64,000 nucleotides of DNA from a virus (Duplodnaviria > Caudoviricetes), in the IMG/VR virus record IMGVR_UViG_3300043077_000092; one strand, written 5' to 3'. This document shows positions 1-14,274 of the stretch, in pieces. Both the position numbers and the translations under genes were made by a program. Each line of letters opens with the position of its first letter. Within the stretch, counting starts at the first letter, position 1. The notes under the pieces are model-generated. The model was not told the origin of the DNA and searched no databases. It worked only from the letters and a program-made list of their open reading frames with translations.

Positions 1-3000
1 GATAGGCCTACCACCATCAAGTCCACCAGAACCACCATTAGCATACTCGTTATAGAATCCCTTCGCATATGCGACACGCTTATCAATACGGGGCCATGAA
101 GCACGTTCAACTGCTGCCTCAAACTGCCTTGTAGCAGTATCAACATCTGTCGAGTTCTTCCAAGCATCGAATGTGGTAGGCGTTGTACCAGCTACCTCAA
201 AGTTGGTTTTCCCTGCGGCGCCATGTCCTACATTAGAACCATAGGTTGCTTTCTTGTTGAAGTATGCAACAGATGAATCTGGTAATTCAGTGGCAAGGTA
301 TCCAATCTGAGGTTCAATGGTGTACCATTGTGCACCCATCTTATTAGCGTAATTCTTAAGATTAGCGAATCGTCCAGTCTCCCATTGGAATATACCATGG
401 GCTACTGCACTATCACTCTTACCAGATTCTGGATTAATACCAGACTCCTGTTGAGCATTACCAAGAATAGCTGCTGTTGCTGCTTTGGAATATCCGTTCT
501 GTGTAAAGTAGTTCCAAATCTTCTGGGCATTAGATGAACCAGTAACACTAGCTGCATCAATTGTTGTACCCGTATAAGCTGAACTATCAGATGAAGAACT
601 ATCATAACTTCCACTAGAAGTTGATGTTGAGGTTGATGAATCATCACTCGTATCAAGACCAAATGCTTTCTTGATTGGGCTTATTGCAGCATCTGCTAAT
701 CCACTTAATAATTCAGTGAAACTACTAAATGAACTTCCTGATGAAGAAGATGCTACGGATGAAGATGACGACGAATCCGTATAGGAAACATCTGCCGTAC
801 TAGAACCATCAACTGCATATGATGATAATGCATTATCTCCTGCGGCACCGCATCTCCAAATTGTCTTATATGCACTATGACCAGATACTGTAGGAACGGC
901 ACTGTTACAAGACTTATCAGAACCGCAGTTATAAACATAATGCTGTCCATTCTGGTTATATGCAAATATTTCAGTATGTCCAGTTATACCAAGGATATCA
1001 CCCTCCTTCAAGTTATCCCAACCGGGCCAGTTGTAAGGAGTAAATCCAGTAGCTTTCATTGTTGAGTTTCCAGCATTCTGGACATCAGAAGAAGTTAAGT
1101 TCTTTCCTTCATCCATTACACCGAAGTACTTCAAACATGTCTGAACATATCCTGAGCAGTCAGTACGTACCTTAATAGAACGTCCACCAACTGTAATCGT
1201 TGTATATCGAGACTGAGAATATCCAAGTTGTTGAGCTGCTATTGCTTGCTTAACTGCTCTAACGATAGATATCCACTTAGATAGTGCCGTAGTTGCAACA
1301 TTTGTTGATGTTGAATCATCATCTGTATCAGATGCATATACTGTTGCACCGCGTCCACCTCTTAAGAGTCTTGATGCAGTACGTTTAGCACCACTGCCAA
1401 AACCACCTGCTTGTCCACCGAACGACCAAGCTCCAGTTGTATCGTTCATAACATCGGACATTCTGTATTCACCAGAGTATTCTTTACCTCTTGGATCATT
1501 GATGATTACATTATTTCCATCTATTCCAGTCGCTGTTACATAGTGACCTTCTGATGTATATGGGCTATTGTTTGAACCGCCTTTTGCGCCCTGTAATATA
1601 ACAGGATTTCCATTTGCAAGAGAGGTTTGTACTGACTCTGCTGTTGGAGAAACCTGCTGATTTGGAATACCAAGAGCATTTCCAGCAGCACTAAAGTATC
1701 CCGGTGTTGTACCAACACTGGTACTGTAGCCACCGTCTTCAGCCATTCGAGCCATTGTAGCAGGGTTATAATCTCTACCAGTGAATTTAGATGCAACCAT
1801 TGCCATTGCAGTAGGTCCGCAACCACTATCACCGATTGTATCATCACCACTACCAAAACCACCTGTCTGCCTGTACGGTTTATTCTTATATCTAGGATCA
1901 TTCTGAGAGTAATAAGGCATTCCATTGAGTTCTTCTCCAGAACCACCTTTTCCTCCAACTGGACGACCACCATCGTTTCCACCTCGACCGAGGTTCATGA
2001 TAGCAGTTCCTGCTGAATTTACCTTGTCTGATACCCAGTTAAGTGCACTAGATGCACCAGATTTAACCGTACTTGCTGCGTTTGATACACCCTCTTTTAC
2101 GTTGTCTACTGTATCAGATACACCTTCTTTTATATTGTCAACAGCATCACCAACGAAATCGAATGCATTCTTTACACTTCGTACAATTCCTACATAAACC
2201 CACATTACCTTCTTAATGATAGAGGACAGTACGCTACCAACTACATCATCATCGCTTGTAGCCATGGATTCGTTATCCCAACCACTAAGGTCTTTATCTG
2301 GGTCAGTGTATTGATTTAACTTAGATACGAATGTACTAACTGATGTGCCGTAATCTTTTACGGCTGTAACTTTTTCTCCGATGAAAGATTTAATCTTCTT
2401 ACCAACGGAAGTTACCATTGCAAGAGGTGTGAGTAATACTTTCTCAACACCCAATACAGCGTTTGCAAAACTACCGACTGGGTTACCCTCTTCATCTACT
2501 TCTGCATATCCCTTTAATCCTTCTACATCTCCTGATATAGCAAGACTTCCAAGGTCTGTAGAACCTGTAATGATTTGAGATCCCGTTGATGCTACTGTAG
2601 TAACAATTCCCTTTACTCCCTCGACAATCTTCTTACCACCAGCTACTACAAGAGCTAACGGATAGTGGAAGATACGGGATACTCCAACCATTGCACTTAC
2701 AAATCCAGATACTGGATTATCTTCCGAAGTCGTAACTTCGTAATTTCCGAGACCGTCCAAATCTCCAGATAGAGAAAGTTGATTCAAAGTGGAGACATTT
2801 GTACTATAATCGGTAGCAGCACTCTTAACTCCAGAGATAATTCCCTTTACTCCCTCGACAATCTTCTTACCACCAGCTACTACAAGAGCTACTGGGTAAT
2901 TGAATACTCTAGTTACTCCGAGTAAACCAGATACAAGTCCGCCTAATGGGTCATCTTCAGAAGTAGATATTTCGTAACTAGACAAACCTGCTACATCACC

Positions 3001-6000
3001 TGAACGAGCTAATTGATTAATATTAGCAAGGTTTGTACTATAATCAGAGAATACAGTCTTTCCTGTGTTAAGAAGCTTGCCAACTCCGTCAGCAATTGCT
3101 CTACCAACTTTCTTAAGTATTCCTGCAACTAAAAGCTTCGGGAACATAGTAAATTTAGCAATATTGAGAACGCCACCAACGATACCGTGGAATGGATTAT
3201 CCTCATCAACTGTATTTACATCTGATTTGAAGTAATCTGCAAAACTATTGTCCTTATTATAGAAGTTATCTTCAATTGTCTTATATCCAGTTGCAAGTCC
3301 CTTAGCCGCATCTACGCCAGATTTAGCAATGTTGCTTATAGAAGAACCTACATTACTGAATATCTCCTTACCTTTGTTGAATACAGTTGATACTCCAGTA
3401 CTAATTGCCTCTTTAGCAGTACTAATACCACCAGAAACAGCTTGACCAACCTTACTATTTTTAATAGCAGAACCAACTCCAGTAACTTTATCCTTAACCC
3501 AAGAACCAGCACCAGATACAGCACTAACGACTGTTGAACCAGCTTTCTTAAGTCCAGAACCAACTCCTTTAACTGCATTTCCAATTCCTTTACCGACACC
3601 TTTGACAGCATCAAATCCTCTCTTAAAGAGAGACTTATTGGTATTAGAATTGTACTCACTTCTCGTTGTAGACAAATCAGATGCTTTAAAGTCTTCGAGG
3701 GACATTGCCTCTTGACCTTGTTCCTCTGTACTCTTAACGTACGCTTCGTATTCTTTCTCAACGTAATCCTCATATCCCTTTGTGAAGTCTTCCTGTTTTG
3801 CATCAAGTGCCGCAGCATCTTCATCATCAGAGAATAATTTATACGTATATGAAGCAATTACCTTGATAAAGTTCATACCAAGGATTTCATAAATCATACT
3901 ATTGATAAAATCGATAATAGAACCAACTGTTGTACTCATAAGACCACTGAATACAGCAGAAATGAGTCTCATCTTGGTATCTACGTCTTCCGAATTAACC
4001 TCAAAGAGATATCCCGCATTAGCAGCACCATTGACGACACCATATACCGCAAATCCAACGTCGAGTGCAATTGCAACAGTACGTCCACTGATTTTACCCA
4101 TAAAATTAGCAATCTTCTCTTTAAATCCTGCAAGAACATCGCTCTTGAAGAATTTCTCAGAGAGCATCTTTGTTATATCATCAAAACTACTAACTGGAAT
4201 ATTAAGACCAAGTTTCTCTCCAGCGGCAGCTAATTTAGATATAAGGAATTCTATTGCACTCTTACCTTTTTCAATAAAGGTTTGAATGACTTTAGAATCA
4301 CCAACTTGTTTAACCGCATTATCTGCAACTTTAGTTATACTAGATACAGCGTTATCCGCAACACCTACAACTTTACCTGCAACCTTCTGAGCAGTACCAG
4401 CTTCGCTTGCGAATGCTGAACCAGCAGCTTTTAGAGCATTATAATCTCTACCAGAAGTTACGAAGTTAGTTGCCGCAGTCTTAGCTGCGGATACAGCAGT
4501 TGATGCAACTTTCTTAGTACCCTTAACAACCGCCTTACCTGCTTTACTATTAAGAGCTTTATCGACTTTCTTAATACCATACGACAATCCCTTACCAGCA
4601 AGTTTTACAGTTGTACCAGAAGTACCAGTCCATTCTTTCTTATTCTCCCACTTACCAGTTTCAGTATCAATTCTAGTTCTAGTAGGAGTAAGAGCCGCAC
4701 TAATACGACTAACTTTATTTGTTTCTGTAACGAGATTTCCATCTTCATCGTATACAAGATTTCCATCATCATCAACCTGATAAGTAGTTTCCTCTCCAGT
4801 AGCGACTGATTCACCCTGAGTTATTTTCTCTTTGAGATTATTAATTGCACCACTAATTCCACCAATCTCAGACCAACCATCTGTAACGGTTTTTGCTAAG
4901 CTTACTAATAAGTCACCAAGTTTAAGGTTCTTGAATAACTTAATGAAGATTGGAAGTAATGCAATAATACCAGCCGTAATTAAACCTTTCTTGCTGAATA
5001 TGCTACTAAAGAGTGACTTATGTTCTTCAGTACTCTCAGAGGTTCTACCAAGATAAGTAAGCATCTTTGTTCTAAACTCAGATTCTTCTTTGTCTTTATC
5101 TGCCGCAGCAAATCTTGAAAGAAGAGAGGTTCTTGAGCCTTTATCAACCTGAGATTGTCTATTGGCAATCTTCTCACTCATCTTATCTCTGAAGTTACCG
5201 ATTGCAGAACCACCTGTAGCCTCGACATTGTCTGTCTTATCGGTATCATCATCGGCAGGTCCACCAGCGGTTAAGTTTGTACTAACTGAAGTATCTCCTG
5301 CATTATTGTCTATCATATCTGGTTTAGTAGGAGTTCCTTCTTCACCACCACCAAGACCAAATAAATCTGGCAATGCACCAGCTTTCATTACGCTTACACT
5401 ACCAAGAGCTTTCATAATATTCCTGATAGCAGATTTAGTTACTCCATCTACAATTACATGAAGTTTGGATTGTTTCTTACGTCCAAATCCACCAGTAAAG
5501 TCAGATACAGAAGTACTTATTGGAGCTGGCTTGATAGGCTTGATTGGTTTACCGCCATCATTACCACCAGAACCGCCAAGTCCCTTAACTTCCTTCACTT
5601 TCTTTACAGTCTTTACTAAATCAAGTGTACCACTATCTACGATAACGTGCTGAACTTTACCTCTACCTAATAGTCCTTTGCCAGCACCACTGAGTAATTT
5701 AAACGGTGCAGATGCAACATTTCCAACGACATTGAGCGCTGTTTTTCCTACAGCTTTTGCGCCAGTCCATAATCCTTTAAGAGCTTCGGCTCCAATCAAT
5801 CCCACTGATTTGAGGATACTACCAAGCCCAGACATTGCTCCGCCAACCAATTGACCAAATCCCTTAGCGGCTCCAGCTATTGTATTTCCGATTGCTTGTA
5901 CACTATCAACTACAACCGAACCAGCAACCTTTAATCCATCTCCGAGTAGAGATACTCCTGTCTTTAATACTTCTCCGATAGCAGGTAATGCTGAACGAAT

Positions 6001-9000
6001 AGCAGACAGTGCTGTATGAGCTATATCAAGAGGTAACTTGACAAGTTCTTTTAATATACTTCCAACGCCCTTTGCAATTCCACCAAGACCACTTATTAAA
6101 GACTTACCAGCTTTTGATAAAAGCCCACCAATGTTCGTAATCCTCTTTACGAATGAATGACCAATATCTGCAATCTTTCTAAACGGTGCAGTTATAATAT
6201 TTCCAATTGCTTGGAACGGACGATTTAATGCTGTACGAATCCTACCAAAGAATCCAACATAAGACTTATTATTATCTCCCTTGATATCTTCGTCTTTCTC
6301 ACCAAATTTCTTCAATAAGAGTCTGTAAATCTTATTGATGTTACTACCAACACCATTCAACTGACCATATACAGAATTTGCAATTTGAGATACATCTTTC
6401 TTTACGCTAGTATAGAAATCGGAGTCAATTTTAGGTGCAGAATAATTCTGACTCTTTGATGTACCTTGTGACTTAGAACTCTGATCAGCAGGAGATACAG
6501 ATACTTTCGTATTATCTGGTTCATATCCGCTTGTAGTTTCAGATTTCTTAGTCTTATTCTTAAATGCACCGGTTGTATTACTCTTTGCAGATGCATTAGG
6601 CGACGTTGCATTAGTAGACTTAGTCTTAAACTTATCTACAACACTTTCTGGGATTGACCAAGACTCACCATTCTTAGTAGCCTGAATCTCACCGGACTTT
6701 ATCATACGTCTAACTTCAGCTCTACTTAATCCAGTACGTCTAGCAAATTCACTTGCAGAAATACCGCTTGGTTGATTTGTAGATACCTTAGTTGCTGACG
6801 AATTAGTTCCACCAGTAGGTGGTGTATAAGAAGGTGCAGAAACAGATGTACCATTTCTGATAGCCATATCCTTTGCAGCAACTCTAGCTCTAACAGCAGC
6901 CTGTTCTCTGGCTTGACGTTCATATCTTTCGACAGTCTGACCACGCTCATAATAAGCACCTTGGTCACTAAACTGAGCAGCATTTCGTTTATCTTTGTCA
7001 TATTTCTCTTTGTTCATCTTTGACCAGAGACTTACTCTCTCTGGAGTTTTACGAAGACGAGCAAAGAATCCTAACTTCTTACCGTTCTCATCAGTTAATA
7101 GAGCATCTCTGTCTGATTTATACTTCTCGTCAACTCCCTGCTCATATCCTTTGACTCCACGTTTCTTCTGTCCTTCATAAGCGGATTTACCTACACCACT
7201 TATTGCTCTAAACGGAGCCGCTATAATATTACCGATGATCTTACCAAGACCACCAAAAATTTTGCTTAAAGTATTCTTCAAAGGTTGAATGAAATGTTTA
7301 TCAACCGCTTCACCAATTGGTTTTGTTATGTTTGTATGAATAGATTCTTTGACGGAATTAAATAATCCGTCTACTTTCTTTTTGATTACTCCACCAAGAT
7401 GCTTTGCTTCAGTTACAATTGGATCGATTGCATACTTAAATGGGATAACCATGTTCTCTTCAACAAATCCCATTATATGGTTTTGGGCGATTTTAACTGA
7501 TTTAGCAAGAGGAGTAAATAACTTTTCCTTTGTAAAATCTGTAAACTTAGTGAGAACTCCACCCTTTCGTTTTCCAGTACCGTCATCTTCTCCAAAGAAC
7601 CAAGTCTTGAATTTATCAGTTGCAGTACCAACGGATAAAGCAGAGCCTAATAATGCATTAAGAATGGGACCACCCGGTAAGAAGAATGAACCAACAAGAC
7701 CTACACCAGCGCCAATACCAGCGTCTATTGCAAGTCCTTTCATGTTCTTATCTTTACCGAATATCTGCTTTAACTTAGCAGTAATTCCACCAGTAGGATT
7801 ATCCTTTGTACCACCTTCTCCATATAAGAGGTTCTGGAACTCAGTCGTCTTTGTTGCAAGCGATACAGCTCCACCAACAAGTGCTCCACCAATTGGACCA
7901 CCCGGGAAGAAGAACGAAGGTAATAGACCATAAGTTGCAGCTAATCCACCAAGACTACCAACTGTTATACCCGTCTTATTATTCTTGAAGAAATCCTGTA
8001 CTTCCTTGGTGATAAGCCCACCGGTACGATAAGTATTGCCGTTTTCGTCTTGATCTTCAGGTCCAAATAAGTAATTCTTTAAACCTGTTGATTTAGATGC
8101 AATACCAATTCCTGCTCCGAGTAATGCTCCACCAATCGGACCACCCGGTAAAAACATAGAGCCAAGTAATCCCATATGTCTATGGAATACCATGGTTCCA
8201 ACGGCACCAAGTACAGCAGATGCACCAACGTATCCTTTCTGACCTTTCATATCCTCTTTGAACTGCTTTACGAATTCTGAAGAGTTTCCAGTCTGTCCAA
8301 ATACGTTATCAGAGAATTCATTTGTACGTTCTTTTAATCTATCAAATACTGCATCTATTCCAGTAGAAATTCTTGTACCAAGACTTTCTTTTGGTTTATC
8401 TGCATCTAATCCAATAGCTGAACTAACAGATGAAGTTACGTTATTGAACATACGTTTTATATTTCCAACAACGCTATTATCCTGCTCAAGTGGTAAAGGT
8501 TTTCCATCAGGTCCTTTCTCACCTAAGATGACAATCTTAACATTAGCCCCCATATTCTTCAGTTCATTTGCAGTTTCACTAAATAAACCACCTGAACGAA
8601 GTCCATCAGAACCTTTTTCTCCTAAAAGGAAAGTGCCAGCTTTACTGGTTAAATCTTTAAACTTTGAAGATACGGTTTTCCAGAATTCAGTCTGTTTAAT
8701 CTTATTAAAGAGACCATCATCTCCAAATAAAGACTCCTCTAAAGGAGATATAATCTTTGCATCGATGAATGTAGAGAATTTAACAAATCCAGCTTTTAAT
8801 GTACCAACCGTCTTGTCAAATATTGCACGGATACCTCTCTGACCATTCTCATCGCCAAATACGATGGCGAATAAAGCACTATCTGCCTTTTTGAATGCAT
8901 CAGTTACTACATTCTTGGATTTATCAACTCCACTATTCAAGTGAGCTAAAATCTTACCAAGCCCAGTATCTTCTGGTACCATGCTGAGAAGTTGAGCGAA

Positions 9001-11346
9001 TGCTCCGGGTTTTGAATCCTTTACACTCTTATTTGCAGTATGGTAAGCAGATGCGTGTGATTTGGCTTGATCGAGATTAAATTCATCGCTTACATCAAGC
9101 TTACCATTCTGCTTATCTTTCTCACGTTTTTCACTTGTATATGATGAAGTTTTGTCCCTTGGTCTAGTAGATTCATATCTATCTTTGTCAGTTCTAAATG
9201 ACGTAATGACATCTCTACGTCTTGCAGATATTGCATCTACAAAAGAGTTACTCGGTTCACCCTCTCCATTACCTGAGCTACGATTCCGTTTACCGCCGAC
9301 TGGTACTACATATATACCAGTATTGAGGGTCTGTAAAATCTCTCTAAGGTAATAAGTCTGATTATGACCAAATTTATCAGTTACACCACTAGCGATACCA
9401 GATGTGGCGCCAATAATAGTCGTACCGTCTTTTGCATAATTTAAGTGAGAGTCTGTAAAGGAGCCATTTGCTTTGCCTTTACCACTCTTACTATGCTCGC
9501 CTAATCCAGTATTCATATACATGGTATTATATTTAACTGGATCAGCCTGCATTTCTCTCATGGTACGGTCTACAAGAGCACGTTGTTCCTGAGGAAGACG
9601 TCCGAATAAAGCAGTAAGTTTGGCATTGTCAACACCAACCATACCTTCTAAGTATGCACGAACTAATTTAACGCTGGCATCTTCTGATGAAGTTTTACCC
9701 ATCAAATCACGAATATCATCTCTACCAGCTTCTTTGCCACTACGTCCACCTTTACGGAAAGTTCTACCACCAGCAGAATCCATTGTAAGCTTAACTAAGA
9801 ACTTCTCAAAATCTTCTGAGAACTGTTCTCTCTGCTTTCTATCAGCCGCTACATTCTGTTCAAGAAACTCTTTAAACTCTGCTTTATAATCAGAATATAA
9901 AGAAGTCTTTCTGGAGATATCATCTTTCTTAAACTGGGTTTCCATATCACGTAACTTCGTGAATGTACCCTTCTCATAATCAAATACTAATTCCTCTGAA
10001 CCAGAGATAGATGAATGAATTTTCCTCAATAAAGTTGGAATAACATTGGTGAGTGCCTGATGGTCTGTACCTGTCCAAGATGTTGCACCTTTATTATACG
10101 CGCCCTTATCAACCGAGGAAATAGAAATCTTATTTTGTACTCCGAATATTTTACCAATTGCATTAAGAACCGCATTATCAGATCTCTGTAATCCAGATAC
10201 CTGATTTAAAGCTGCAATGGCTGTTTCCTTCAACTGGTTATCAAATTCTGTAATAACCGACTTTACTGTATTTGGAATAAGTTGCTTTGTAATAGCTTTT
10301 GGAATAAAAGATAATGGATTCTGAGCCATCATCTTAAGAGTATCTTTTTCACCAGCTACGAACTTGAGCTGAGAAAGAATCATGTTGCTATCAATGTAGT
10401 TATTGAGCTGCTTTTGCACAAGTTTCTTATAGGCTTCACCATTAATGCTTCCACCCATAGAGAACATTTCCATTACGTCATTATAGTCACGGAATTTTCT
10501 TGTATTGATTTCTGTATTAGGAGCCTGAGCTTTAACAGCTTCCAATATCTGAGTCTGAAGACTGATACTGTCCTCATAATACTTTGCAGATAACGCTGAA
10601 CTCTTTGAAAGAGTATCTCCAACTACCGTTGCTATAGTAGCTACGTTTCCATTAATTGCAGATAACGATGCATTGAGTTCGTTACGCATACCACCAAGAG
10701 CAGTATACATTGCTCTTGTATTTGCCTTATCATAATCTACAATAGCTCTACCAACATTAACCATCGTTTCTGTCTGATAGTTCGTAGCCTGATATAAGGC
10801 ACTGTCTTCACCGAGATTAGTATTTACAACGATACTAGTAGCTTCGTTGTTACCACCTTTCTTACGGTGAAACGATGCATGAGTCTCTCCATCTGAAGAG
10901 TCTAAAGATCCACTGAAGTCATCTTCTCCAGCATCGAAATCTTCAAAATCTCCCCAATCATCACCCATGTCCATCATGTCGTCGTTCATATCACTGAAGA
11001 ACTTATCTGCTCTTTCTTTATTATAGAACTTACCAGACTTCAAGTCTTCCAGTGAATTCTTGAATACCTCTCTACCTAATCCAACGTAGTAGTTACGGTC
11101 AACTGCGTTCTTTAGAGTATTAGCAGAGGATCTCGTCTTTTTAATCGCTTCAACTGCATCTTTACCTGCTGATGCTGTAGTCTTTGCGACATCAATCGTA
11201 GATGGCATTAATTCAGAAAGTACATCAAAGGTTGAATATCCTACAGACTTAACTGCATTTGCTACCCAAGAACCAGACCTCTGAGCAACATTACGAGTTT
11301 TCGTAGTAGGTTTCTTGACGTACTTACTAAGACTATCTCTTGCCAT
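1..11346 (-). CDS. Giant tape-measure / tail-associated lysin (phiKZ gp181-like), partial, runs off window; >=3782 codons
   Basis: ATG at 11346 after GAAAGGAAGTGAG (MARDSLSKYVKK...). Same frame still open at base 1 (...YNEYANGGSGGLDGGRPI), and the track reports no ORF in this frame, as expected if there is no in-window stop. DHQALTNVIPTLLRKI resembles the phiKZ-type TMP motif; Gly/Ala helical repeats; C39-like (GCGPTAMAM..GHYV..INDP, ~1450-1930), NlpC/P60-like (DCSG..GHTEI, ~900-1300) and tail lysozyme-like (GNAQQESG..GIFQW..VERA, ~40-520) domains. Confidence 0.85.
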   Translation of the reverse strand, partial: MARDSLSKYVKKPTTKTRNVAQRSGSWVANAVKSVGYSTFDVLSELMPSTIDVAKTTASAGKDAVEAIKKTRSSANTLKNAVDRNYYVGLGREVFKNSLEDLKSGKFYNKERADKFFSDMNDDMMDMGDDWGDFEDFDAGEDDFSGSLDSSDGETHASFHRKKGGNNEATSIVVNTNLGEDSALYQATNYQTETMVNVGRAIVDYDKANTRAMYTALGGMRNELNASLSAINGNVATIATVVGDTLSKSSALSAKYYEDSISLQTQILEAVKAQAPNTEINTRKFRDYNDVMEMFSMGGSINGEAYKKLVQKQLNNYIDSNMILSQLKFVAGEKDTLKMMAQNPLSFIPKAITKQLIPNTVKSVITEFDNQLKETAIAALNQVSGLQRSDNAVLNAIGKIFGVQNKISISSVDKGAYNKGATSWTGTDHQALTNVIPTLLRKIHSSISGSEELVFDYEKGTFTKLRDMETQFKKDDISRKTSLYSDYKAEFKEFLEQNVAADRKQREQFSEDFEKFLVKLTMDSAGGRTFRKGGRSGKEAGRDDIRDLMGKTSSEDASVKLVRAYLEGMVGVDNAKLTALFGRLPQEQRALVDRTMREMQADPVKYNTMYMNTGLGEHSKSGKGKANGSFTDSHLNYAKDGTTIIGATSGIASGVTDKFGHNQTYYLREILQTLNTGIYVVPVGGKRNRSSGNGEGEPSNSFVDAISARRRDVITSFRTDKDRYESTRPRDKTSSYTSEKREKDKQNGKLDVSDEFNLDQAKSHASAYHTANKSVKDSKPGAFAQLLSMVPEDTGLGKILAHLNSGVDKSKNVVTDAFKKADSALFAIVFGDENGQRGIRAIFDKTVGTLKAGFVKFSTFIDAKIISPLEESLFGDDGLFNKIKQTEFWKTVSSKFKDLTSKAGTFLLGEKGSDGLRSGGLFSETANELKNMGANVKIVILGEKGPDGKPLPLEQDNSVVGNIKRMFNNVTSSVSSAIGLDADKPKESLGTRISTGIDAVFDRLKERTNEFSDNVFGQTGNSSEFVKQFKEDMKGQKGYVGASAVLGAVGTMVFHRHMGLLGSMFLPGGPIGGALLGAGIGIASKSTGLKNYLFGPEDQDENGNTYRTGGLITKEVQDFFKNNKTGITVGSLGGLAATYGLLPSFFFPGGPIGGALVGGAVSLATKTTEFQNLLYGEGGTKDNPTGGITAKLKQIFGKDKNMKGLAIDAGIGAGVGLVGSFFLPGGPILNALLGSALSVGTATDKFKTWFFGEDDGTGKRKGGVLTKFTDFTKEKLFTPLAKSVKIAQNHIMGFVEENMVIPFKYAIDPIVTEAKHLGGVIKKKVDGLFNSVKESIHTNITKPIGEAVDKHFIQPLKNTLSKIFGGLGKIIGNIIAAPFRAISGVGKSAYEGQKKRGVKGYEQGVDEKYKSDRDALLTDENGKKLGFFARLRKTPERVSLWSKMNKEKYDKDKRNAAQFSDQGAYYERGQTVERYERQAREQAAVRARVAAKDMAIRNGTSVSAPSYTPPTGGTNSSATKVSTNQPSGISASEFARRTGLSRAEVRRMIKSGEIQATKNGESWSIPESVVDKFKTKSTNATSPNASAKSNTTGAFKNKTKKSETTSGYEPDNTKVSVSPADQSSKSQGTSKSQNYSAPKIDSDFYTSVKKDVSQIANSVYGQLNGVGSNINKIYRLLLKKFGEKDEDIKGDNNKSYVGFFGRIRTALNRPFQAIGNIITAPFRKIADIGHSFVKRITNIGGLLSKAGKSLISGLGGIAKGVGSILKELVKLPLDIAHTALSAIRSALPAIGEVLKTGVSLLGDGLKVAGSVVVDSVQAIGNTIAGAAKGFGQLVGGAMSGLGSILKSVGLIGAEALKGLWTGAKAVGKTALNVVGNVASAPFKLLSGAGKGLLGRGKVQHVIVDSGTLDLVKTVKKVKEVKGLGGSGGNDGGKPIKPIKPAPISTSVSDFTGGFGRKKQSKLHVIVDGVTKSAIRNIMKALGSVSVMKAGALPDLFGLGGGEEGTPTKPDMIDNNAGDTSVSTNLTAGGPADDDTDKTDNVEATGGSAIGNFRDKMSEKIANRQSQVDKGSRTSLLSRFAAADKDKEESEFRTKMLTYLGRTSESTEEHKSLFSSIFSKKGLITAGIIALLPIFIKLFKNLKLGDLLVSLAKTVTDGWSEIGGISGAINNLKEKITQGESVATGEETTYQVDDDGNLVYDEDGNLVTETNKVSRISAALTPTRTRIDTETGKWENKKEWTGTSGTTVKLAGKGLSYGIKKVDKALNSKAGKAVVKGTKKVASTAVSAAKTAATNFVTSGRDYNALKAAGSAFASEAGTAQKVAGKVVGVADNAVSSITKVADNAVKQVGDSKVIQTFIEKGKSAIEFLISKLAAAGEKLGLNIPVSSFDDITKMLSEKFFKSDVLAGFKEKIANFMGKISGRTVAIALDVGFAVYGVVNGAANAGYLFEVNSEDVDTKMRLISAVFSGLMSTTVGSIIDFINSMIYEILGMNFIKVIASYTYKLFSDDEDAAALDAKQEDFTKGYEDYVEKEYEAYVKSTEEQGQEAMSLEDFKASDLSTTRSEYNSNTNKSLFKRGFDAVKGVGKGIGNAVKGVGSGLKKAGSTVVSAVSGAGSWVKDKVTGVGSAIKNSKVGQAVSGGISTAKEAISTGVSTVFNKGKEIFSNVGSSISNIAKSGVDAAKGLATGYKTIEDNFYNKDNSFADYFKSDVNTVDEDNPFHGIVGGVLNIAKFTMFPKLLVAGILKKVGRAIADGVGKLLNTGKTVFSDYSTNLANINQLARSGDVAGLSSYEISTSEDDPLGGLVSGLLGVTRVFNYPVALVVAGGKKIVEGVKGIISGVKSAATDYSTNVSTLNQLSLSGDLDGLGNYEVTTSEDNPVSGFVSAMVGVSRIFHYPLALVVAGGKKIVEGVKGIVTTVASTGSQIITGSTDLGSLAISGDVEGLKGYAEVDEEGNPVGSFANAVLGVEKVLLTPLAMVTSVGKKIKSFIGEKVTAVKDYGTSVSTFVSKLNQYTDPDKDLSGWDNESMATSDDDVVGSVLSSIIKKVMWVYVGIVRSVKNAFDFVGDAVDNIKEGVSDTVDNVKEGVSNAASTVKSGASSALNWVSDKVNSAGTAIMNLGRGGNDGGRPVGGKGGSGEELNGMPYYSQNDPRYKNKPYRQTGGFGSGDDTIGDSGCGPTAMAMVASKFTGRDYNPATMARMAEDGGYSTSVGTTPGYFSAAGNALGIPNQQVSPTAESVQTSLANGNPVILQGAKGGSNNSPYTSEGHYVTATGIDGNNVIINDPRGKEYSGEYRMSDVMNDTTGAWSFGGQAGGFGSGAKRTASRLLRGGRGATVYASDTDDDSTSTNVATTALSKWISIVRAVKQAIAAQQLGYSQSRYTTITVGGRSIKVRTDCSGYVQTCLKYFGVMDEGKNLTSSDVQNAGNSTMKATGFTPYNWPGWDNLKEGDILGITGHTEIFAYNQNGQHYVYNCGSDKSCNSAVPTVSGHSAYKTIWRCGAAGDNALSSYAVDGSSTADVSYTDSSSSSSVASSSSGSSFSSFTELLSGLADAAISPIKKAFGLDTSDDSSTSTSTSSGSYDSSSSDSSAYTGTTIDAASVTGSSNAQKIWNYFTQNGYSKAATAAILGNAQQESGINPESGKSDSAVAHGIFQWETGRFANLKNYANKMGAQWYTIEPQIGYLATELPDSSVAYFNKKATYGSNVGHGAAGKTNFEVAGTTPTTFDAWKNSTDVDTATRQFEAAVERASWPRIDKRVAYAKGFYNEYANGGSGGLDGGRPI
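2605..2891. repeat. 53-bp exact direct repeat (2605-2657 and 2839-2891) within a ~78-aa repeat array of the tape measure
   Basis: AATTCCCTTTACTCCCTCGACAATCTTCTTACCACCAGCTACTACAAGAGCTA twice, 234 bp apart. Confidence 0.9.
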
Positions 11347-11374
11347 TGTTATCTCACTTCCTTTCAAGTTAGAT

Positions 11375-11441: not shown

Positions 11442-11448
11442 TATATTA
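11442..11448 (+). promoter_or_regulatory. Early-type promoter motif TATATTA upstream of peptide unit 1
   Basis: Same heptamer recurs at about 9 operon starts; resembles phiKZ/AR9 early promoter core. Confidence 0.6.
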
Positions 11449-11500
11449 GATATGAGTAAGCAAAGAAAGATTGGCTTACCAAGAAAGGAGGTGAATCCTC

Positions 11501-11707
11501 ATGGCAAACCAAAAAGGGTTTGGTAACACGGCATCATTACCGTGTTACCAACCAGTCAACACCCAACCTAGTTGGGTACATGGATATCCGAGCACCAATC
11601 GGACGTTCATGGATGAGTACGAATCACATCGTGCTCATGTTAATGACAACCCTGAGATGTTTGCACGAGACGTAAGTGTCATTATGAACTTACTGAGTGC
11701 AATGTAG
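11501..11707 (+). CDS. Small peptide family copy 1 (68 aa) in hairpin-rich mRNA
   Basis: SD AAAGGAGGTGA; shares F..YES.RA..DNPE.F.RD...I.N.LS with 13908..14117; own terminator. Confidence 0.75.
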   Translation: MANQKGFGNTASLPCYQPVNTQPSWVHGYPSTNRTFMDEYESHRAHVNDNPEMFARDVSVIMNLLSAM

Positions 11708-11723
11708 CTAGGTTTGTCTCATC

Positions 11724-11766
11724 AAAAATATAGGGTGGATGAGTTATTGTCCACCCTATATTTTTT
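11724..11766 (+). terminator. Intrinsic terminator of peptide unit 1
   Basis: AAAAATATAGGGTGGA / TCCACCCTATATTTTT stem ending in T-tract. Confidence 0.85.
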
Positions 11767-11844
11767 GTGTAAAGCAACTTTGTTTATTATAAAGTTCATA
11801 GATAAAAAACAATGCTGATTTGACAATAGAGGAGGTGATTCCTT

Positions 11845-11998
11845 ATGGCAAACCAGCATTGTTGTGATAATGGTGGCATGTACCATTACCAAGTTCGTAC
11901 ATCTCCCAGTTATGGGAATCATAGATATTCGAGCACCACCGATCGAACATTCTTAGATAAATACGAATATGCGTCTTATCTTGAACGCATTACTGTAA
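11845..11998 (+). pseudogene. Small peptide family copy 2, frameshifted by ~47-nt internal deletion
   Basis: MANQ...DRTFLDKYE matches copy 1; the family C-terminus (MRLILNALL*, 11969-11998) lies in another frame; the track ORF reads on through the terminator to 12090. Confidence 0.7.
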
Positions 11999-12024
11999 TG
12001 TATCATGAATTTCACAAAATTAAG

Positions 12025-12060
12025 AATGGGTGGGTAACTTCGGTTCCCACCCATTTTTTT
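12025..12060 (+). terminator. Intrinsic terminator of peptide unit 2
   Basis: AATGGGTGGG..AAC-TTCG-GTT..CCCACCCATT followed by T-tract. Confidence 0.85.
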
Positions 12061-12102
12061 GTATTACTATTTCGGATTTCAACCTACTAGACAATCTGCA
12101 AA

Positions 12103-12109
12103 TATATTA
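12103..12109 (+). promoter_or_regulatory. Early-type promoter motif TATATTA upstream of ABC exporter
   Basis: Exact motif ~57 nt before ATG. Confidence 0.55.
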
Positions 12110-12165
12110 ATTATATAGGATACAGAAACCACGGAATCTTAAATATAAAAGAGGAGGTAAGATAT

Positions 12166-13866
12166 ATGAAATATCTTAAAGAGGCAGCGTTCAAAACAAA
12201 ATCGGTGTATATAATCGCCGTGAGTGTAGTAATCTCTATAGTATGTACTACTATAAATACCGAGATACTCATTTGGATTTCCAATGCAGTTACTAATTAT
12301 AAAGATCCAATGCATTGGGTTAATCTGGTTATAATCGGTTGTGTTTCTATAATAGTACTTGCTATAGTTAGACCATGGTTTAATAATATAGGAAACCATA
12401 AAGTCTACACTTACCTTTATAATCGACTTACTGACAAGTTGGTTTGCGCTGATTATGATTTGTACACGAAGTTCTCGCCGGGTGAAATAATCACTACAGC
12501 AGAAAGTTTATGGAACATAACTCGTCTAGTCATATTGTCACTTAATATGATTAGAAATCTGATTACATTCATCATTACTATGATCGCAATCGGATTAATT
12601 GCGCCTAAGGTAATCGTTCCTATTGGTATTGTCTATATAATAGCTGCAATTGTATTGTATATTGCAACTAAGAAATGGAACGAGGCTGACGAAGAGTTAG
12701 ATTCTAATAAGCGTAAACGTAATAGGGAACTTGACGAGATAATAAATGGATTTGCTGAGGTACGCTCATTTAGTCATGCAGTTGAGCATCATCAGAAGTC
12801 GATAACAAGCATGAACAACAGTGTTCTCTCAATGATTGGAAAGAGAATCAGGGTTGATTCATTCATAACTGTTTGGTATCAGGTAATTGATGGTGCAGTT
12901 ACAGTCGGCATATTGGCATACGTTATCCTTGCACTGAATAATGGTTCTATGACATCATCTGCAACGGCAGTGACTTTAGCAATGTATGCTTGGAGATTGA
13001 TTGAACCTATGGCTTCATTTGTTGACTCTCTTAGCGAAGTATCTTCATGTAAAGCACCGTTACCAAAATTTGAACGTGTGATGAATTATGAGAATACTGT
13101 ACCAACTGGTTCAATTGATCTTGAGTCATTTGACAGGGAAATTCAGTTCAACCATGTAGATTTCTCATACGATAAGTCTAGTTACGTATTGAACGATGTT
13201 TCCTTCAGTGTAAAGAAAGGAGAACATATCGGAATATGTGGACCAACAGGCGGAGGAAAATCTACGTTGTTAAAGCTTGTTCCAAAGTTCTATGATGTAA
13301 CTGGTGGTTCGATCACAATTGATGGGATTAACTTAAAGGATCTTACAACTACATCAGTTAGAGAGCATATCGGGATAGTACACCAGTCTCCATACATTTT
13401 TGATGGTTCTATTATGAGCAATATTAAGTATGCTGGTTTCAATAGAACGTCTAGTGGAAACTCAGTTACTGATGCAGAAGTTATTGATGCTTGTAAGAAA
13501 GCGTCAATCTATGATTTTGTAATGTCACTTCCAGATAAGTTCGAAACCCAGGTTGGACCAAGAGGTCTCAAACTTTCTGGTGGGCAAAAGCAAAGAATAG
13601 CATTAGCTCGTTTATTCATCAGTAATCCAGATATCATAATATTGGACGAAGCTACTTCAGCGTTGGATAATGAAACGGAGAGATTTGTACAAGATTCTCT
13701 AAATGCATTTAGAGATAAGACTATGATAGTTGTTGCTCATCGATTATCAACTATAAAGAATTCAGACAAGATTATTGTAATTGATGAGCATCGCGTTGTG
13801 GAACAAGGTACTCATGAGGAACTCATCGAGAAGAAAGGATTATATGAATCCATGTATAATAACTAA
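12166..13866 (+). CDS. ABC exporter half-transporter (fused TMD+NBD, MsbA/Sav1866-like)
   Basis: About 6 hydrophobic segments then Walker A GPTGGGKST, Q-loop, LSGGQKQR, Walker B IIILDEATSALD, H-loop AHRL; no N-terminal peptidase domain. Confidence 0.95.
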   Translation: MKYLKEAAFKTKSVYIIAVSVVISIVCTTINTEILIWISNAVTNYKDPMHWVNLVIIGCVSIIVLAIVRPWFNNIGNHKVYTYLYNRLTDKLVCADYDLYTKFSPGEIITTAESLWNITRLVILSLNMIRNLITFIITMIAIGLIAPKVIVPIGIVYIIAAIVLYIATKKWNEADEELDSNKRKRNRELDEIINGFAEVRSFSHAVEHHQKSITSMNNSVLSMIGKRIRVDSFITVWYQVIDGAVTVGILAYVILALNNGSMTSSATAVTLAMYAWRLIEPMASFVDSLSEVSSCKAPLPKFERVMNYENTVPTGSIDLESFDREIQFNHVDFSYDKSSYVLNDVSFSVKKGEHIGICGPTGGGKSTLLKLVPKFYDVTGGSITIDGINLKDLTTTSVREHIGIVHQSPYIFDGSIMSNIKYAGFNRTSSGNSVTDAEVIDACKKASIYDFVMSLPDKFETQVGPRGLKLSGGQKQRIALARLFISNPDIIILDEATSALDNETERFVQDSLNAFRDKTMIVVAHRLSTIKNSDKIIVIDEHRVVEQGTHEELIEKKGLYESMYNN

Positions 13867-13869
13867 AAA

Positions 13870-13929
13870 TAAACAAGTGATCAGTAAATTGAAAGGAGGT
13901 GATTCCTATGATTACTGATCACTTGTTTA
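13870..13929 (+). promoter_or_regulatory. Perfect 18-bp stem enclosing RBS and start codon of peptide copy 3
   Basis: TAAACAAGTGATCAGTAA (13870-13887) / TTACTGATCACTTGTTTA (13912-13929) flank AAAGGAGGTGATTCCT-ATG. Confidence 0.8.
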
Positions 13930-14117
13930 GTGATCCCAACAAGACAAGTCTTGTTGGGTCGGTTCCATACTCAATGAGTAATAGGAACCAGCGTCATGAT
14001 ACTCGGTCCCCAGATTTGAGTTTCATGACAGGGTATGAGTCTAATCGTGCCCGAATAAGTGATAATCCCGAAGCATTTTCTCGGGATATGCGTTTCATAC
14101 TAAACGCATTATCTTAA
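13908..14117 (+). CDS. Small peptide family copy 3 (69 aa, MITDHLFS...) in hairpin-rich mRNA
   Basis: ATG 13908 after AAAGGAGGTGA; paralogous to 11501..11707. Confidence 0.75.
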   Translation: MITDHLFSDPNKTSLVGSVPYSMSNRNQRHDTRSPDLSFMTGYESNRARISDNPEAFSRDMRFILNALS

Positions 14118-14139
14118 TGTATTAAGGTATATCACAATT

Positions 14140-14179
14140 TATAGGGGAGATGGTTTTATTCATCTCCCCTATATTTTTT
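14140..14179 (+). terminator. Intrinsic terminator of peptide unit 3
   Basis: TATAGGGGAGATG / CATCTCCCCTATA + T-tract. Confidence 0.85.
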
Positions 14180-14274
14180 GTATGAATTAACAACCCCTCG
14201 GAACATACAAAAAATGAAGCAGAACAAGATTTACACTCGTTCTGCTTCATTCACGCAGCGATATTTAACCGATC

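What the first reader, a model, noticed from the sequence alone, without database searches (positions are those of the whole stretch)
11471..13929. Co-varying RBS/start-codon-locking stem in every peptide copy
Seen: each 5' leader is complementary to that copy's own first codons although the sequences differ. Copy 1: TTGGCTTACCA/TGGCAAACCAA (11471-81/11502-12, imperfect). Copy 2: AACAATGCTG/CAGCATTGTT (11808-17/11854-63). Copy 3: perfect 18 bp (13870-87/13912-29). The SD can also fold on itself (GAGG/CCTC, GGA/TCC). Conserved structure with different sequence implies selection for translational silencing, as in type I toxin mRNAs. In copy 3 the stem starts 4 nt after the ABC stop codon, so a terminating ribosome could open it, coupling peptide synthesis to transporter synthesis (inference).
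Basis: partly seen in the sequence, partly recalled or inferred. Interest (0 to 1): 0.75.

Follow-up and report, generated by a model that had tools for sequence, protein, structure and literature searches.

The report
Co-varying start-site hairpin in phage peptide genes
A family of small, unusually tightly folded early genes in a 220-kb jumbo phage carries a real, co-evolving RNA hairpin that encloses the ribosome binding site, but only about half the copies are predicted to be shut by it. It is another example of a known way of throttling translation, not a toxin-style lock or a link to the neighbouring transporter.

Summary
All three arm pairs are at the stated coordinates: copy 3 has 18/18 bp, copy 2 has 10 perfect bp inside 16/18, and copy 1 has 9/11.

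The peptide family has 7 paralogues in this AR9-like jumbo phage. One metagenomic homologue (L015) also has DNA available.

- **Covariation:** on a sequence-only alignment of all 8 leaders, the helix shows 14 of 20 pairs with double changes (0/500 shuffles reach this). A swap test gives p = 5e-5.
- **Rarity:** three family members are among the four strongest such stems of about 208 genes in the genome.
- **"Every copy" is too strong:** the helix is predicted to form (P about 1) in copies 2, 3, p5 and L015. In copy 1, p6 and p7 a 5'-terminal hairpin captures the helix's 5' arm and the ribosome binding site is ordinary or open. p4 is bistable. Copy 2 is a decayed gene with a 47-nt frameshifting deletion.
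- **Type I toxin analogy fails:** all peptides are hydrophilic with no membrane segment, and no antisense RNA is evident.
- **Coupling to the ABC stop fails on geometry:** a terminating ribosome reaches only a few of the 18 bp, and p5 and L015 sit 16 and 7-10 nt behind unrelated genes.

Best reading: a ribosome-binding-site-occluding attenuator of a known kind, embedded in hairpin-tiled mRNAs (whole-module z = -9 to -13). What opens it is unknown.

The parts
11442..11456 (+). Copy 1 early-type promoter-like motif (TATATTAG, then 6 nt, then G); predicted +1 at 11456
   Evidence: TATATTA(a)-N5-T-R recurs upstream of genes in this phage and resembles the AR9 early promoter consensus (PMC5312081). 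Copy 1 deviates from it at one position (A instead of T before +1). The transcription start is inferred, not measured.
11456..11479 (+). Copy 1 5'-terminal hairpin GTAAGC (11456-61) / GCTTAC (11474-79). It competes with the start-site helix for the same segment.
   Evidence: Pair probability 0.94 in the full-length predicted transcript, while the start-site helix has P about 0.
11471..11512 (+). SD GGAGG at 11487-91, TCCT at 11496-99, ATG at 11501.
   Evidence: the complementarity is real but the helix is not predicted to form. Opening energy is 7.7 kcal/mol, about the genome average.
11501..11707 (+). Copy 1 coding sequence (68 aa), followed by its terminator at 11724-11771
11808..11863 (+). 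Copy 2 start-site helix: arms 11808-25 / 11846-63 (16 of 18 pairs, with a perfect 10-bp core). The loop holds SD 11831-35 and ATG 11845.
   Evidence: I6; P 0.99; opening energy 22.4.
11845..12090 (+). Copy 2 relic ORF. A 47-nt internal deletion near 11968/11969 removes the conserved RAHVxDNPxxFxRD core and shifts the last helix (MRLILNALL*) into the +1 frame.
   Evidence: three-frame translation plus a MAFFT alignment with copies 1 and 3.
12103..12117 (+). Early-type promoter-like motif of the ABC gene (TATATTAA-N5-T-A). It is the only promoter candidate that could serve copy 3.
   Evidence: No terminator or promoter motif lies between the ABC stop and copy 3.
12166..13866 (+). ABC exporter gene (566 aa, fused transmembrane and ATPase domains, no C39 peptidase domain). 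Stop codon at 13864-66.
   Evidence: PF00664 + PF00005; phrog_2392, profile positions 158-714 only.
13870..13929 (+). Copy 3 start-site helix: arms 13870-87 / 13912-29 (18/18 pairs). The 24-nt loop holds SD 13895-99, TCCT 13904-07 and ATG 13908.
   Evidence: z -6.1; I1; strongest such stem in the genome; opening energy 26.8; P 1.0.
13908..14117 (+). Copy 3 coding sequence (69 aa), followed by its terminator at 14140-14179. The whole module 13867-14180 folds as about 9 consecutive hairpins.
   Evidence: (MFE -136.6 kcal/mol, z -12.6).

Best explanation
The stem is a real cis-acting RNA helix maintained by selection. It pairs the segment just 5' of a very strong Shine-Dalgarno sequence (GAAAGGAGGTGA) with nucleotides +2 to about +14 (up to +22) of the ORF. 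The SD therefore sits in the loop, where a conserved TCCT can also pair with its AGGA. In the copies embedded behind another gene (copy 3, p5, the metagenomic homologue L015) and in the relic copy 2, it is the dominant fold. There it should act as a ribosome-binding-site occluder that strongly attenuates or gates translation, like the inhibitory start-site helices of phage T4 genes e, soc, 49 and I-TevI. In the copies with their own early-type promoter (copy 1, p6, p7, partly p4), the helix's 5' arm is instead captured by a hairpin at the very 5' end of the transcript. These copies are predicted to be translatable, and the 5' hairpin probably also serves as a 5'-end stabiliser. The helix is the first of a chain of hairpins covering the whole mRNA. 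Shown here: the complementarity, the covariation, the rarity in the genome and the predicted thermodynamics. Inferred: transcription start sites, co-transcription with the upstream gene, the effect on translation, and whatever opens the helix.
For: Covariation on a sequence-only alignment and an independent RNAalifold prediction of the same helix. Swap test p = 5e-5. Explicit compensations between copy 3 and p5 at synonymous sites: +6 U-A to A-U and +12 U-A to C-G, with the peptide MITDHLF unchanged. A distant homologue from another phage, L015 (ABC gene 62% identical, peptide 44%), has a different 13-17 bp helix in the same register. Opening energies lie above all 167 background genes for 5 of 8 members. 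The TCC(T) spacer element is family-specific. The helix and the 5' hairpin are mutually exclusive, and their probabilities split by promoter context. T4 precedent for inhibitory start-site helices: PMC3014915.
Against: There are no transcript, structure-probing or translation data; all folds and start sites are predictions. Stems are almost purely Watson-Crick (G.U in 5-12% of pairs), and sense and antisense strands fold equally well, so RNA-level selection on the sense strand is not proven. Coding interiors of all copies are also unusually structured (z -3.1 to -9.2 against a background of -1.7 +/- 1.3), so the first hairpin may be part of a general hairpin tiling rather than a dedicated translational device. 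No opener was found: there is no internal promoter as in T4, and no overlap with the upstream ORF. The sample is only 8 sequences in about 5 independent arm classes.
Confidence: 0.55

Rival explanations
1. General hairpin tiling for RNA stability or an RNA-level function. The whole roughly 300-nt transcript is selected to be a chain of hairpins, for example for nuclease resistance, as a long-lived 'masked' early message, or as a dual-function RNA. The start-site stem is simply the first hairpin and has no dedicated regulatory role.
For: Whole-module z = -12.6 (copy 3) and -9.3 (copy 1). Coding interiors, with the start-site helix and terminator excluded, give z -3.1 to -9.2 in all 8 members against -1.7 +/- 1.3 for 40 other coding windows. 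The unalignable N-terminal halves each contain their own perfect 11-12 bp hairpins.
Against: The first helix keeps a fixed register relative to the SD and AUG across unrelated arm sequences, and it comes with a family-specific anti-SD TCCT. That is more specific than tiling requires. The two readings are not mutually exclusive.
Confidence: 0.2
2. The feature acts at the DNA level or on the antisense strand. The inverted repeats could be kept perfect by template-switch (quasipalindrome) correction, or they could act on the opposite strand as hairpin-plus-U-tract terminators of an antisense RNA whose loop carries an anti-SD (a type I toxin-antitoxin-like control).
For: Stems are nearly all Watson-Crick. 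The two mismatches of the c1/p4/p6 class and one of copy 2 are A.C on the sense strand, which become G.U on the antisense strand. Every 5' arm is preceded by an A-rich tract, which is a T-run on the other strand. Antisense folds are as stable as sense folds. An antisense terminator-like hairpin lies at 11551-11520.
Against: Loops of 20-36 nt are atypical for intrinsic terminators, and the scan does not flag the start-site helices as such. Antisense promoter-motif hits occur at about the chance rate of 2. L015 has G.U pairs on the sense strand. The peptides are hydrophilic, not membrane toxins. Template-switch correction does not explain the fixed register at the start site.
Confidence: 0.1
3. 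RNase III (or other double-strand-specific) processing site. The long perfect stems of the operon-embedded copies are cleaved, either to separate the peptide message from the upstream message or to destroy it.
For: An 18-bp perfect duplex in copy 3, and 13-17 bp in p5 and L015, each placed exactly between two cistrons. From my own knowledge, Bacillus phage SP82 early RNAs are processed by RNase III.
Against: Most family stems are 10-13 bp or interrupted, which is below the usual substrate length. Cutting both arms would cleave inside codons 2-7.
Confidence: 0.08
4. One reading: type I-toxin-like silencing, with the copy 3 helix opened by the ribosome terminating on the ABC gene, so that peptide and transporter synthesis are coupled.
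For: The copy 3 stem starts 3 nt after the ABC stop. Start-region sequestration is a hallmark of type I toxin mRNAs.
Against: Forced unwinding to stop+9 leaves 19.3 kcal/mol to open the copy 3 start region and changes nothing for p5 or L015. Stop-to-helix gaps are 3, 16 and 7-10 nt, behind three unrelated genes. No family member has a hydrophobic segment.
Confidence: 0.05

Closest known systems
Inhibitory start-site helices of phage T4 genes e, soc, 49 and I-TevI (review PMC3014915)
   Same: In both, a phage mRNA hairpin pairs upstream sequence with the SD/AUG region. Transcripts that start upstream and contain both arms are translationally repressed.
   Different: In T4 a late promoter inside or next to the 5' arm makes a shorter, open transcript. 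No such promoter was found here: there is no AACA-N6-T-R or TATATTA motif at the arms. Here the SD sits in the loop rather than in the stem, and promoter-proximal copies escape through a competing 5' hairpin.
Translational coupling by unfolding of an inhibitory structure (for example rpmI-rplT, or MS2 coat-replicase; from my own knowledge)
   Same: A downstream cistron has its start region closed by a helix, in an operon position directly behind another ORF.
   Different: In the known cases the translated upstream ORF overlaps one arm of the helix. Here the helix lies entirely 3' of the stop codon, and modelling a terminating ribosome barely lowers the opening cost.
5'-terminal stem-loop and STAB-SD mRNA stabilisers of Bacillus (cryIIIA STAB-SD GAAAGGAGG, ermC/aprE leaders, SP82 polypurine stabiliser; from my own knowledge)
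   Same: Copies c1, p4, p6 and p7 begin with a hairpin within 0-2 nt of the predicted +1, and all copies carry GAAAGGAGG(TGA).
   Different: Here the 3' arm of the 5' hairpin doubles as the 5' arm of the start-site helix, so the two structures are mutually exclusive. The SD is the real translation signal, not a decoy.
Type I toxin mRNAs (hok, tisB, aapA1, bsrG and others)
   Same: Small ORF, highly structured mRNA, start region sequestered by local pairing.
   Different: The peptides here are hydrophilic with no membrane helix. No antisense RNA is evident. There are seven dispersed paralogues plus homologues in other phages, and half of the copies are predicted to be open.

Membership tests
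Start-site-occluding translational attenuator helix (generic class) | A helix that includes the SD and/or start codon and early codons, and is stable relative to other genes of the same genome | tested here: met
   Met for c2, c3, p5, L015 (and p4, p6 in a fixed -60..+60 window): opening energy 17-27 against a background maximum of 19.5. Not met for c1 and p7.
Start-site-occluding translational attenuator helix (generic class) | Evolutionary support: compensatory changes keep the helix | tested here: met
   14/20 pairs with double changes, 0/500 shuffles, slid controls flat.
Start-site-occluding translational attenuator helix (generic class) | Measured reduction of translation that is relieved by arm mutations | not testable with these tools
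   Needs reporter fusions or toeprinting.
T4 gene e / soc / I-TevI type temporal control | A proximal promoter within or after the 5' arm that yields an open transcript | tested here: not met
   No early (TATATTA-N-N5-T-R, up to 1 mismatch) or late (AACA-N6-T-R) motif is positioned to start inside the arms of c2, c3, p5 or L015. Both motifs are genuinely enriched upstream of genes in this genome.
Translational coupling by ribosome unwinding | The upstream ORF, or its terminating ribosome, overlaps the inhibitory helix | tested here: not met
   Gaps of 3, 16 and 7-10 nt between stop and helix. Opening energy remains 19-24 kcal/mol with the mRNA unwound to stop+9.
Type I toxin-antitoxin | Small hydrophobic membrane-active toxin | tested here: not met
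   GRAVY -0.25 to -0.90; maximum 19-residue hydropathy at most 1.08 in 19 family members. The AF2 model is a disordered N-half plus two amphipathic-length helices.
Type I toxin-antitoxin | Antisense RNA antitoxin overlapping or pairing with the toxin mRNA | tested here: inconclusive
   Only chance-level antisense promoter matches; no RNA data; no Rfam hit.
5'-terminal stem-loop mRNA stabiliser | A stable hairpin within about 4 nt of the transcript's 5' end | tested here: inconclusive
   Predicted for c1, p4, p6 and p7, but the +1 positions are inferred from a promoter motif and not mapped.
RNase III substrate | About 20 bp or more of near-continuous dsRNA | tested here: inconclusive
   Copy 3 has 18 bp (plus inner pairs) and L015 has 17 bp with 3 G.U. 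The other copies have 10-13 bp or are interrupted.
Any curated RNA family (Rfam 15) | A covariance-model match | tested here: not met
   only two sub-threshold chance hits, neither at the leaders.

The most novel reading that the evidence does not exclude
The modules could be a three-element RNA switch family. Element a and a' form a 5' hairpin (ON state), and a' and a'' form the start-site helix (OFF state), all built into hairpin-tiled 'masked' early messages of an orphan phage peptide family. Operon-embedded copies would be held OFF until a phage- or host-encoded factor (a helicase, a nuclease or an RNA) opens them, giving timed release of hypervariable-N-terminus peptides that the adjacent ABC exporter might export.
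Probability: 0.15. Interest if true: 0.7.

Novelty: new member of a known kind. Interest (0 to 1): 0.42.

Why it matters
This is a clean natural example of a start-site helix kept by compensatory change across paralogues whose arm sequences are unrelated, including compensation at synonymous codon positions. Within one gene family, the open and closed states track genomic context: own promoter versus operon-embedded.

It also flags an orphan family of peptide genes in jumbo phages related to AR9. Their mRNAs are extremely structured, they sit next to an ABC exporter, and their function is unknown.

The mechanism class itself, occlusion of the ribosome binding site, is long established. The value here is as an annotation and a lead for experiments, not as a new principle.

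Tried and rejected
**Searches for more homologous DNA**
- Close-relative searches of IMG/VR with copy 1, copy 3, the ABC protein and a two-sequence ABC alignment found nothing. The 7-sequence peptide alignment was too variable for the tool.
- Megablast against GenBank phages found no match.
- The 5.8-billion-protein search returned only this phage's own peptides plus one near-identical variant, P0005.
- An IUPAC pattern for the conserved C-terminal motif gave only chance hits in IMG/VR and GTDB genomes. In the metagenome collection it gave the true homologue L015/L016.
DNA for the 12 further homologues found by the HMM search could therefore not be fetched, and covariation rests on 8 leaders.

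**Searches for function or a partner**
- Pfam, PHROGs, Rfam and the ESM Atlas gave no functional lead for the peptides or leaders.
- No second copy of any arm exists elsewhere in the genome beyond chance 10-11-mers, so there is no trans-acting partner candidate.

**Readings rejected**
- A late-promoter reading of the AACAA shared by several 5' arms, because the T-R element is missing at N6.
- A sigma-70-type promoter reading of TATAAT upstream of copy 3, because this phage appears to use AR9-like promoters and encodes its own RNA polymerase.
- Sense-versus-antisense discrimination by fold energy, which showed no consistent preference.
Full report
**Context**

The window is the minus strand of positions 22913-86912 of a 220,062-bp IMG/VR virus record, estimated 93% complete. 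The phage encodes a multisubunit RNA polymerase beta-like protein. Its best matches, at about 31% identity, are Staphylococcus, Bacillus and Listeria jumbo phages of the AR9/PBS1 type.

Two promoter-like motifs known from AR9 (PMC5312081) recur upstream of its genes:
- an early-type TATATTA(a)-N5-T-R;
- a late-type AACA-N6-T-A/G. It occurs 31 times within 120 nt upstream of starts against 11.6 expected, with a cluster 25-33 nt before large genes.

The region of the finding holds, in order: peptide copy 1, peptide copy 2, an ABC exporter of 566 aa (PF00664 + PF00005, no C39 peptidase domain), and peptide copy 3.

**The gene family**

The peptides are not three but seven paralogues in this genome. 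Besides c1, c2 and c3 in the window there are four more:
- p4 (L002:1501-1698, minus strand);
- p5 (L009:1501-1710, plus strand);
- p6 (L004:1501-1695, plus strand);
- p7 (L013:1495-1707, minus strand).

They share a variable N-terminal half and a conserved C-terminal half, consensus FMxxYExxRAxVxxxPxxFxRDxRFIMNALS. An AlphaFold model gives a disordered N-half and two helices at residues 36-45 and 51-67 (mean pLDDT 65).

A profile search of 1.84 billion representatives found 12 more distant homologues of 57-106 aa with the same layout. No Pfam, PHROG or Atlas lead exists. All members are hydrophilic.

A pattern scan of metagenome contigs recovered one homologue with DNA, L015, and its near-duplicate L016. 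L015 is a syntenic fragment of a different phage. It carries an ABC gene 62% identical to ours, a 275-aa gene, a 52-aa peptide, and a convergent homologue of the window's 14275-14862 gene.

Copy 2 is a decayed gene. A 47-nt internal deletion, not a multiple of three, removes the conserved core and leaves the last helix (MRLILNALL*) in the +1 frame.

**Checking the observation**

Folding the short leaders gives z = -6.1 for c3, -3.6 for c2 and -2.1 for c1. For c1 the minimum-energy fold does not use the proposed stem.

The four copies outside the window and L015 provide an independent test:
- p5 has a perfect 13-bp helix, GGTCAGTTATCAT / ATGATAACTGACC.
- L015 has CGTGTTAGCCAT / ATGGCTAACACG, extendable to 17 bp with three G.U pairs.
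- p4 and p6 have TACTGGCTTACC / GGCAAACCAGTA, with the same two A.C mismatches as c1.
- p7 has only ATATTC / GAATAT.

**Is it more than chance?**

Four tests bear on this.

1. *Genome baseline.* I computed the duplex energy between -60..-14 and +2..+40 for about 208 genes. Copy 3 is the strongest in the genome, and p5 and c2 are third and fourth. By the number of other genes with an equal or stronger stem, p4 ranks 8/201, p6 18/201, c1 42/201 and p7 123/201.
2. *Opening energy.* The energy to open -18..+14 is 26.8 for c3, 24.3 for L015, 22.4 for c2, 22.1 for p5, 22.0 for p6 and 17.4 for p4. The 167 other SD-bearing genes average 8.4 with a maximum of 19.5. c1 (7.7) and p7 (2.7) are ordinary or open.
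3. *Swap test.* Each 5' segment was paired with each 3' segment. Own pairs average -16.4 kcal/mol and cross pairs -7.7, with permutation p = 5e-5.
4. *Alignment test.* In a MAFFT alignment made from sequence alone, seven of the eight leaders fall into one register. On it the 20-pair helix has 73.6% of cells paired, against 59% in shuffles and 28-39% when partners are slid. Fourteen pairs change on both sides and the covariation score is 0.42 against 0.18, with 0/500 shuffles reaching the observed values. RNAalifold independently predicts the core of the same helix, and 8 of its 11 pairs show double changes.

Between c3 and p5 the peptide start MITDHLF is unchanged, while synonymous changes at +6 and +12 are matched in the upstream arm.

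The SD self-pairing is also real. TCC or CCT sits in the spacer of 7 of 8 family members but in only 4 of 142 other genes.

The family splits by genomic context.

*Own-promoter copies.* Copies c1, p4, p6 and p7 are preceded by the early-type promoter motif. The predicted +1 falls 0-2 nt before a hairpin whose 3' arm is the same segment as the 5' arm of the start-site helix. That hairpin is GGTAAGC / GCTTACC in p4 and p6, GTAAGC / GCTTAC in c1, and GAATATC / GATATTC in p7.

On full-length predicted transcripts this 5' hairpin has probability 0.94-1.0 in c1, p6 and p7, and the start-site helix about 0. p4 is bistable, with helix 0.8 and 5' hairpin 0.19.

*Operon-embedded copies.* Copies c3, p5 and L015 have no promoter motif of their own. 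They sit 41-47 nt behind the stop of another gene: the ABC exporter, a 65-aa ORF and a 275-aa ORF respectively. There, and in the relic c2, the helix has probability about 1.

So the lock is predicted to be closed in about half of the copies, not in every one.

**Testing the interpretation**

*Type I toxin analogy.* Start-region sequestration is shared, but the defining toxin property is not. No family member has a hydrophobic segment. Antisense promoter-motif matches occur at the chance rate. Rfam finds nothing.

*Coupling to the ABC stop.* The helix lies entirely 3' of the stop codon. From established knowledge, the ribosomal helicase acts about 11 nt 3' of the first P-site nucleotide, so a terminating ribosome would reach only the first two or three pairs of the copy 3 stem.

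I forced the mRNA single-stranded up to 5, 9 or 12 nt past the stop. The copy 3 opening cost stays at 25.3, 19.3 and 14.2 kcal/mol, and p5 and L015 stay at 22-24. The three upstream genes are unrelated. A specific link to transporter synthesis is therefore not supported.

*T4-type control.* The T4 solution is a proximal promoter inside the 5' arm (PMC3014915). It was looked for and not found.

**A wider feature that colours the reading**

The start-site helix is the first of a chain of hairpins that covers each module.
- Copy 3 (13867-14180) folds at -136.6 kcal/mol with z = -12.6.
- Copy 1 (11456-11771) folds at -125.6 kcal/mol with z = -9.3.
- With the start-site helix and terminator excluded, the coding interiors of all eight members give z between -3.1 and -9.2. 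Forty other coding windows of this phage give -1.7 +/- 1.3.

The stems are almost purely Watson-Crick, and sense and antisense strands fold equally well. The strand under selection, or even the level (RNA or DNA), cannot be fixed from sequence alone. On the antisense strand the A.C mismatches of the c1/p4/p6 class would become G.U pairs, and every stem would be followed by a T-rich run. This keeps an antisense or DNA-level rival alive at low probability.

**Conclusion**

The co-varying helix around the start site is real and statistically exceptional, and it is conserved in a homologue from another phage.

The best-supported mechanism is occlusion of the ribosome binding site, with the strong SD displayed in the loop and a family-specific anti-SD element. 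It attenuates or gates translation of the operon-embedded copies. In the promoter-proximal copies a competing 5'-terminal hairpin keeps the start site open and probably stabilises the 5' end.

What opens the closed copies is unknown.

This is a new member of a well-known kind of cis-regulatory element, sitting in an orphan, unusually structured phage gene family that deserves experimental attention.

**Limits**

The DNA of 12 further homologues could not be examined.
- All transcription start sites, folds and effects on translation are predictions.

Noticed in passing
window 11845-12090: Copy 2 is a pseudogene-like relic. A 47-nt deletion near 11968/11969 removes the conserved peptide core and frameshifts the last helix. 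It still keeps a strong SD, the longest ancestral-looking start-site helix and a terminator.
   Followed up: yes
window 11456-11771 and 13867-14180 (also L002, L004, L009, L013, L015): Whole peptide modules are tiled by consecutive near-perfect hairpins (z -9.3 and -12.6). The unalignable N-terminal coding halves each carry their own 11-12 bp perfect hairpin, for example 11520-11551 and 13935-13958.
   Followed up: partly
whole genome G000; examples at window 11442-11456 and 12103-12117: The phage appears to use AR9-like promoters. An early-type TATATTA(a)-N5-T-R has about 30 sites. A late-type AACA-N6-T-A/G is enriched about 2.7-fold upstream of genes and peaks 25-33 nt before large genes. 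The peptide genes and the ABC gene carry only the early type.
   Followed up: partly
L015:1-3861 (ERZ778497 NODE-7086) and L016: A related phage keeps the synteny ABC exporter, peptide, convergent gene, but has a 275-aa gene inserted between the ABC gene and the peptide. L016 differs from L015 by a 5-nt deletion that changes the peptide's N-terminus; coverage is only about 2x, so this may be an assembly error.
   Followed up: partly
window 11551-11520 (minus strand): The second hairpin of copy 1 is followed on the opposite strand by CCCTTTTTG and is flagged as an intrinsic-terminator-like site just before the copy 1 start codon, read on the antisense strand.
   Followed up: no
window 11765-11775, 12058-12068, 14173-14183, 14212-14203 (minus strand), and other terminators in G000: Intrinsic terminators in this phage end in a conserved TTTTTTGTAT tail. 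There are 24 genome-wide, 13 of them intergenic. The meaning of the GTAT is unknown.
   Followed up: no
P0008-P0020 (proteins): Twelve more distant family members of 57-106 aa exist in public metagenome proteins. All have variable N-termini and the conserved C-terminal two-helix motif. P0018 (312 aa, four repeats) looks like an unrelated low-complexity hit.
   Followed up: partly
window 1-11367 (minus strand): A giant ORF (3,920 aa in the genome) is transcribed divergently from copy 1. I did not examine it.
   Followed up: no
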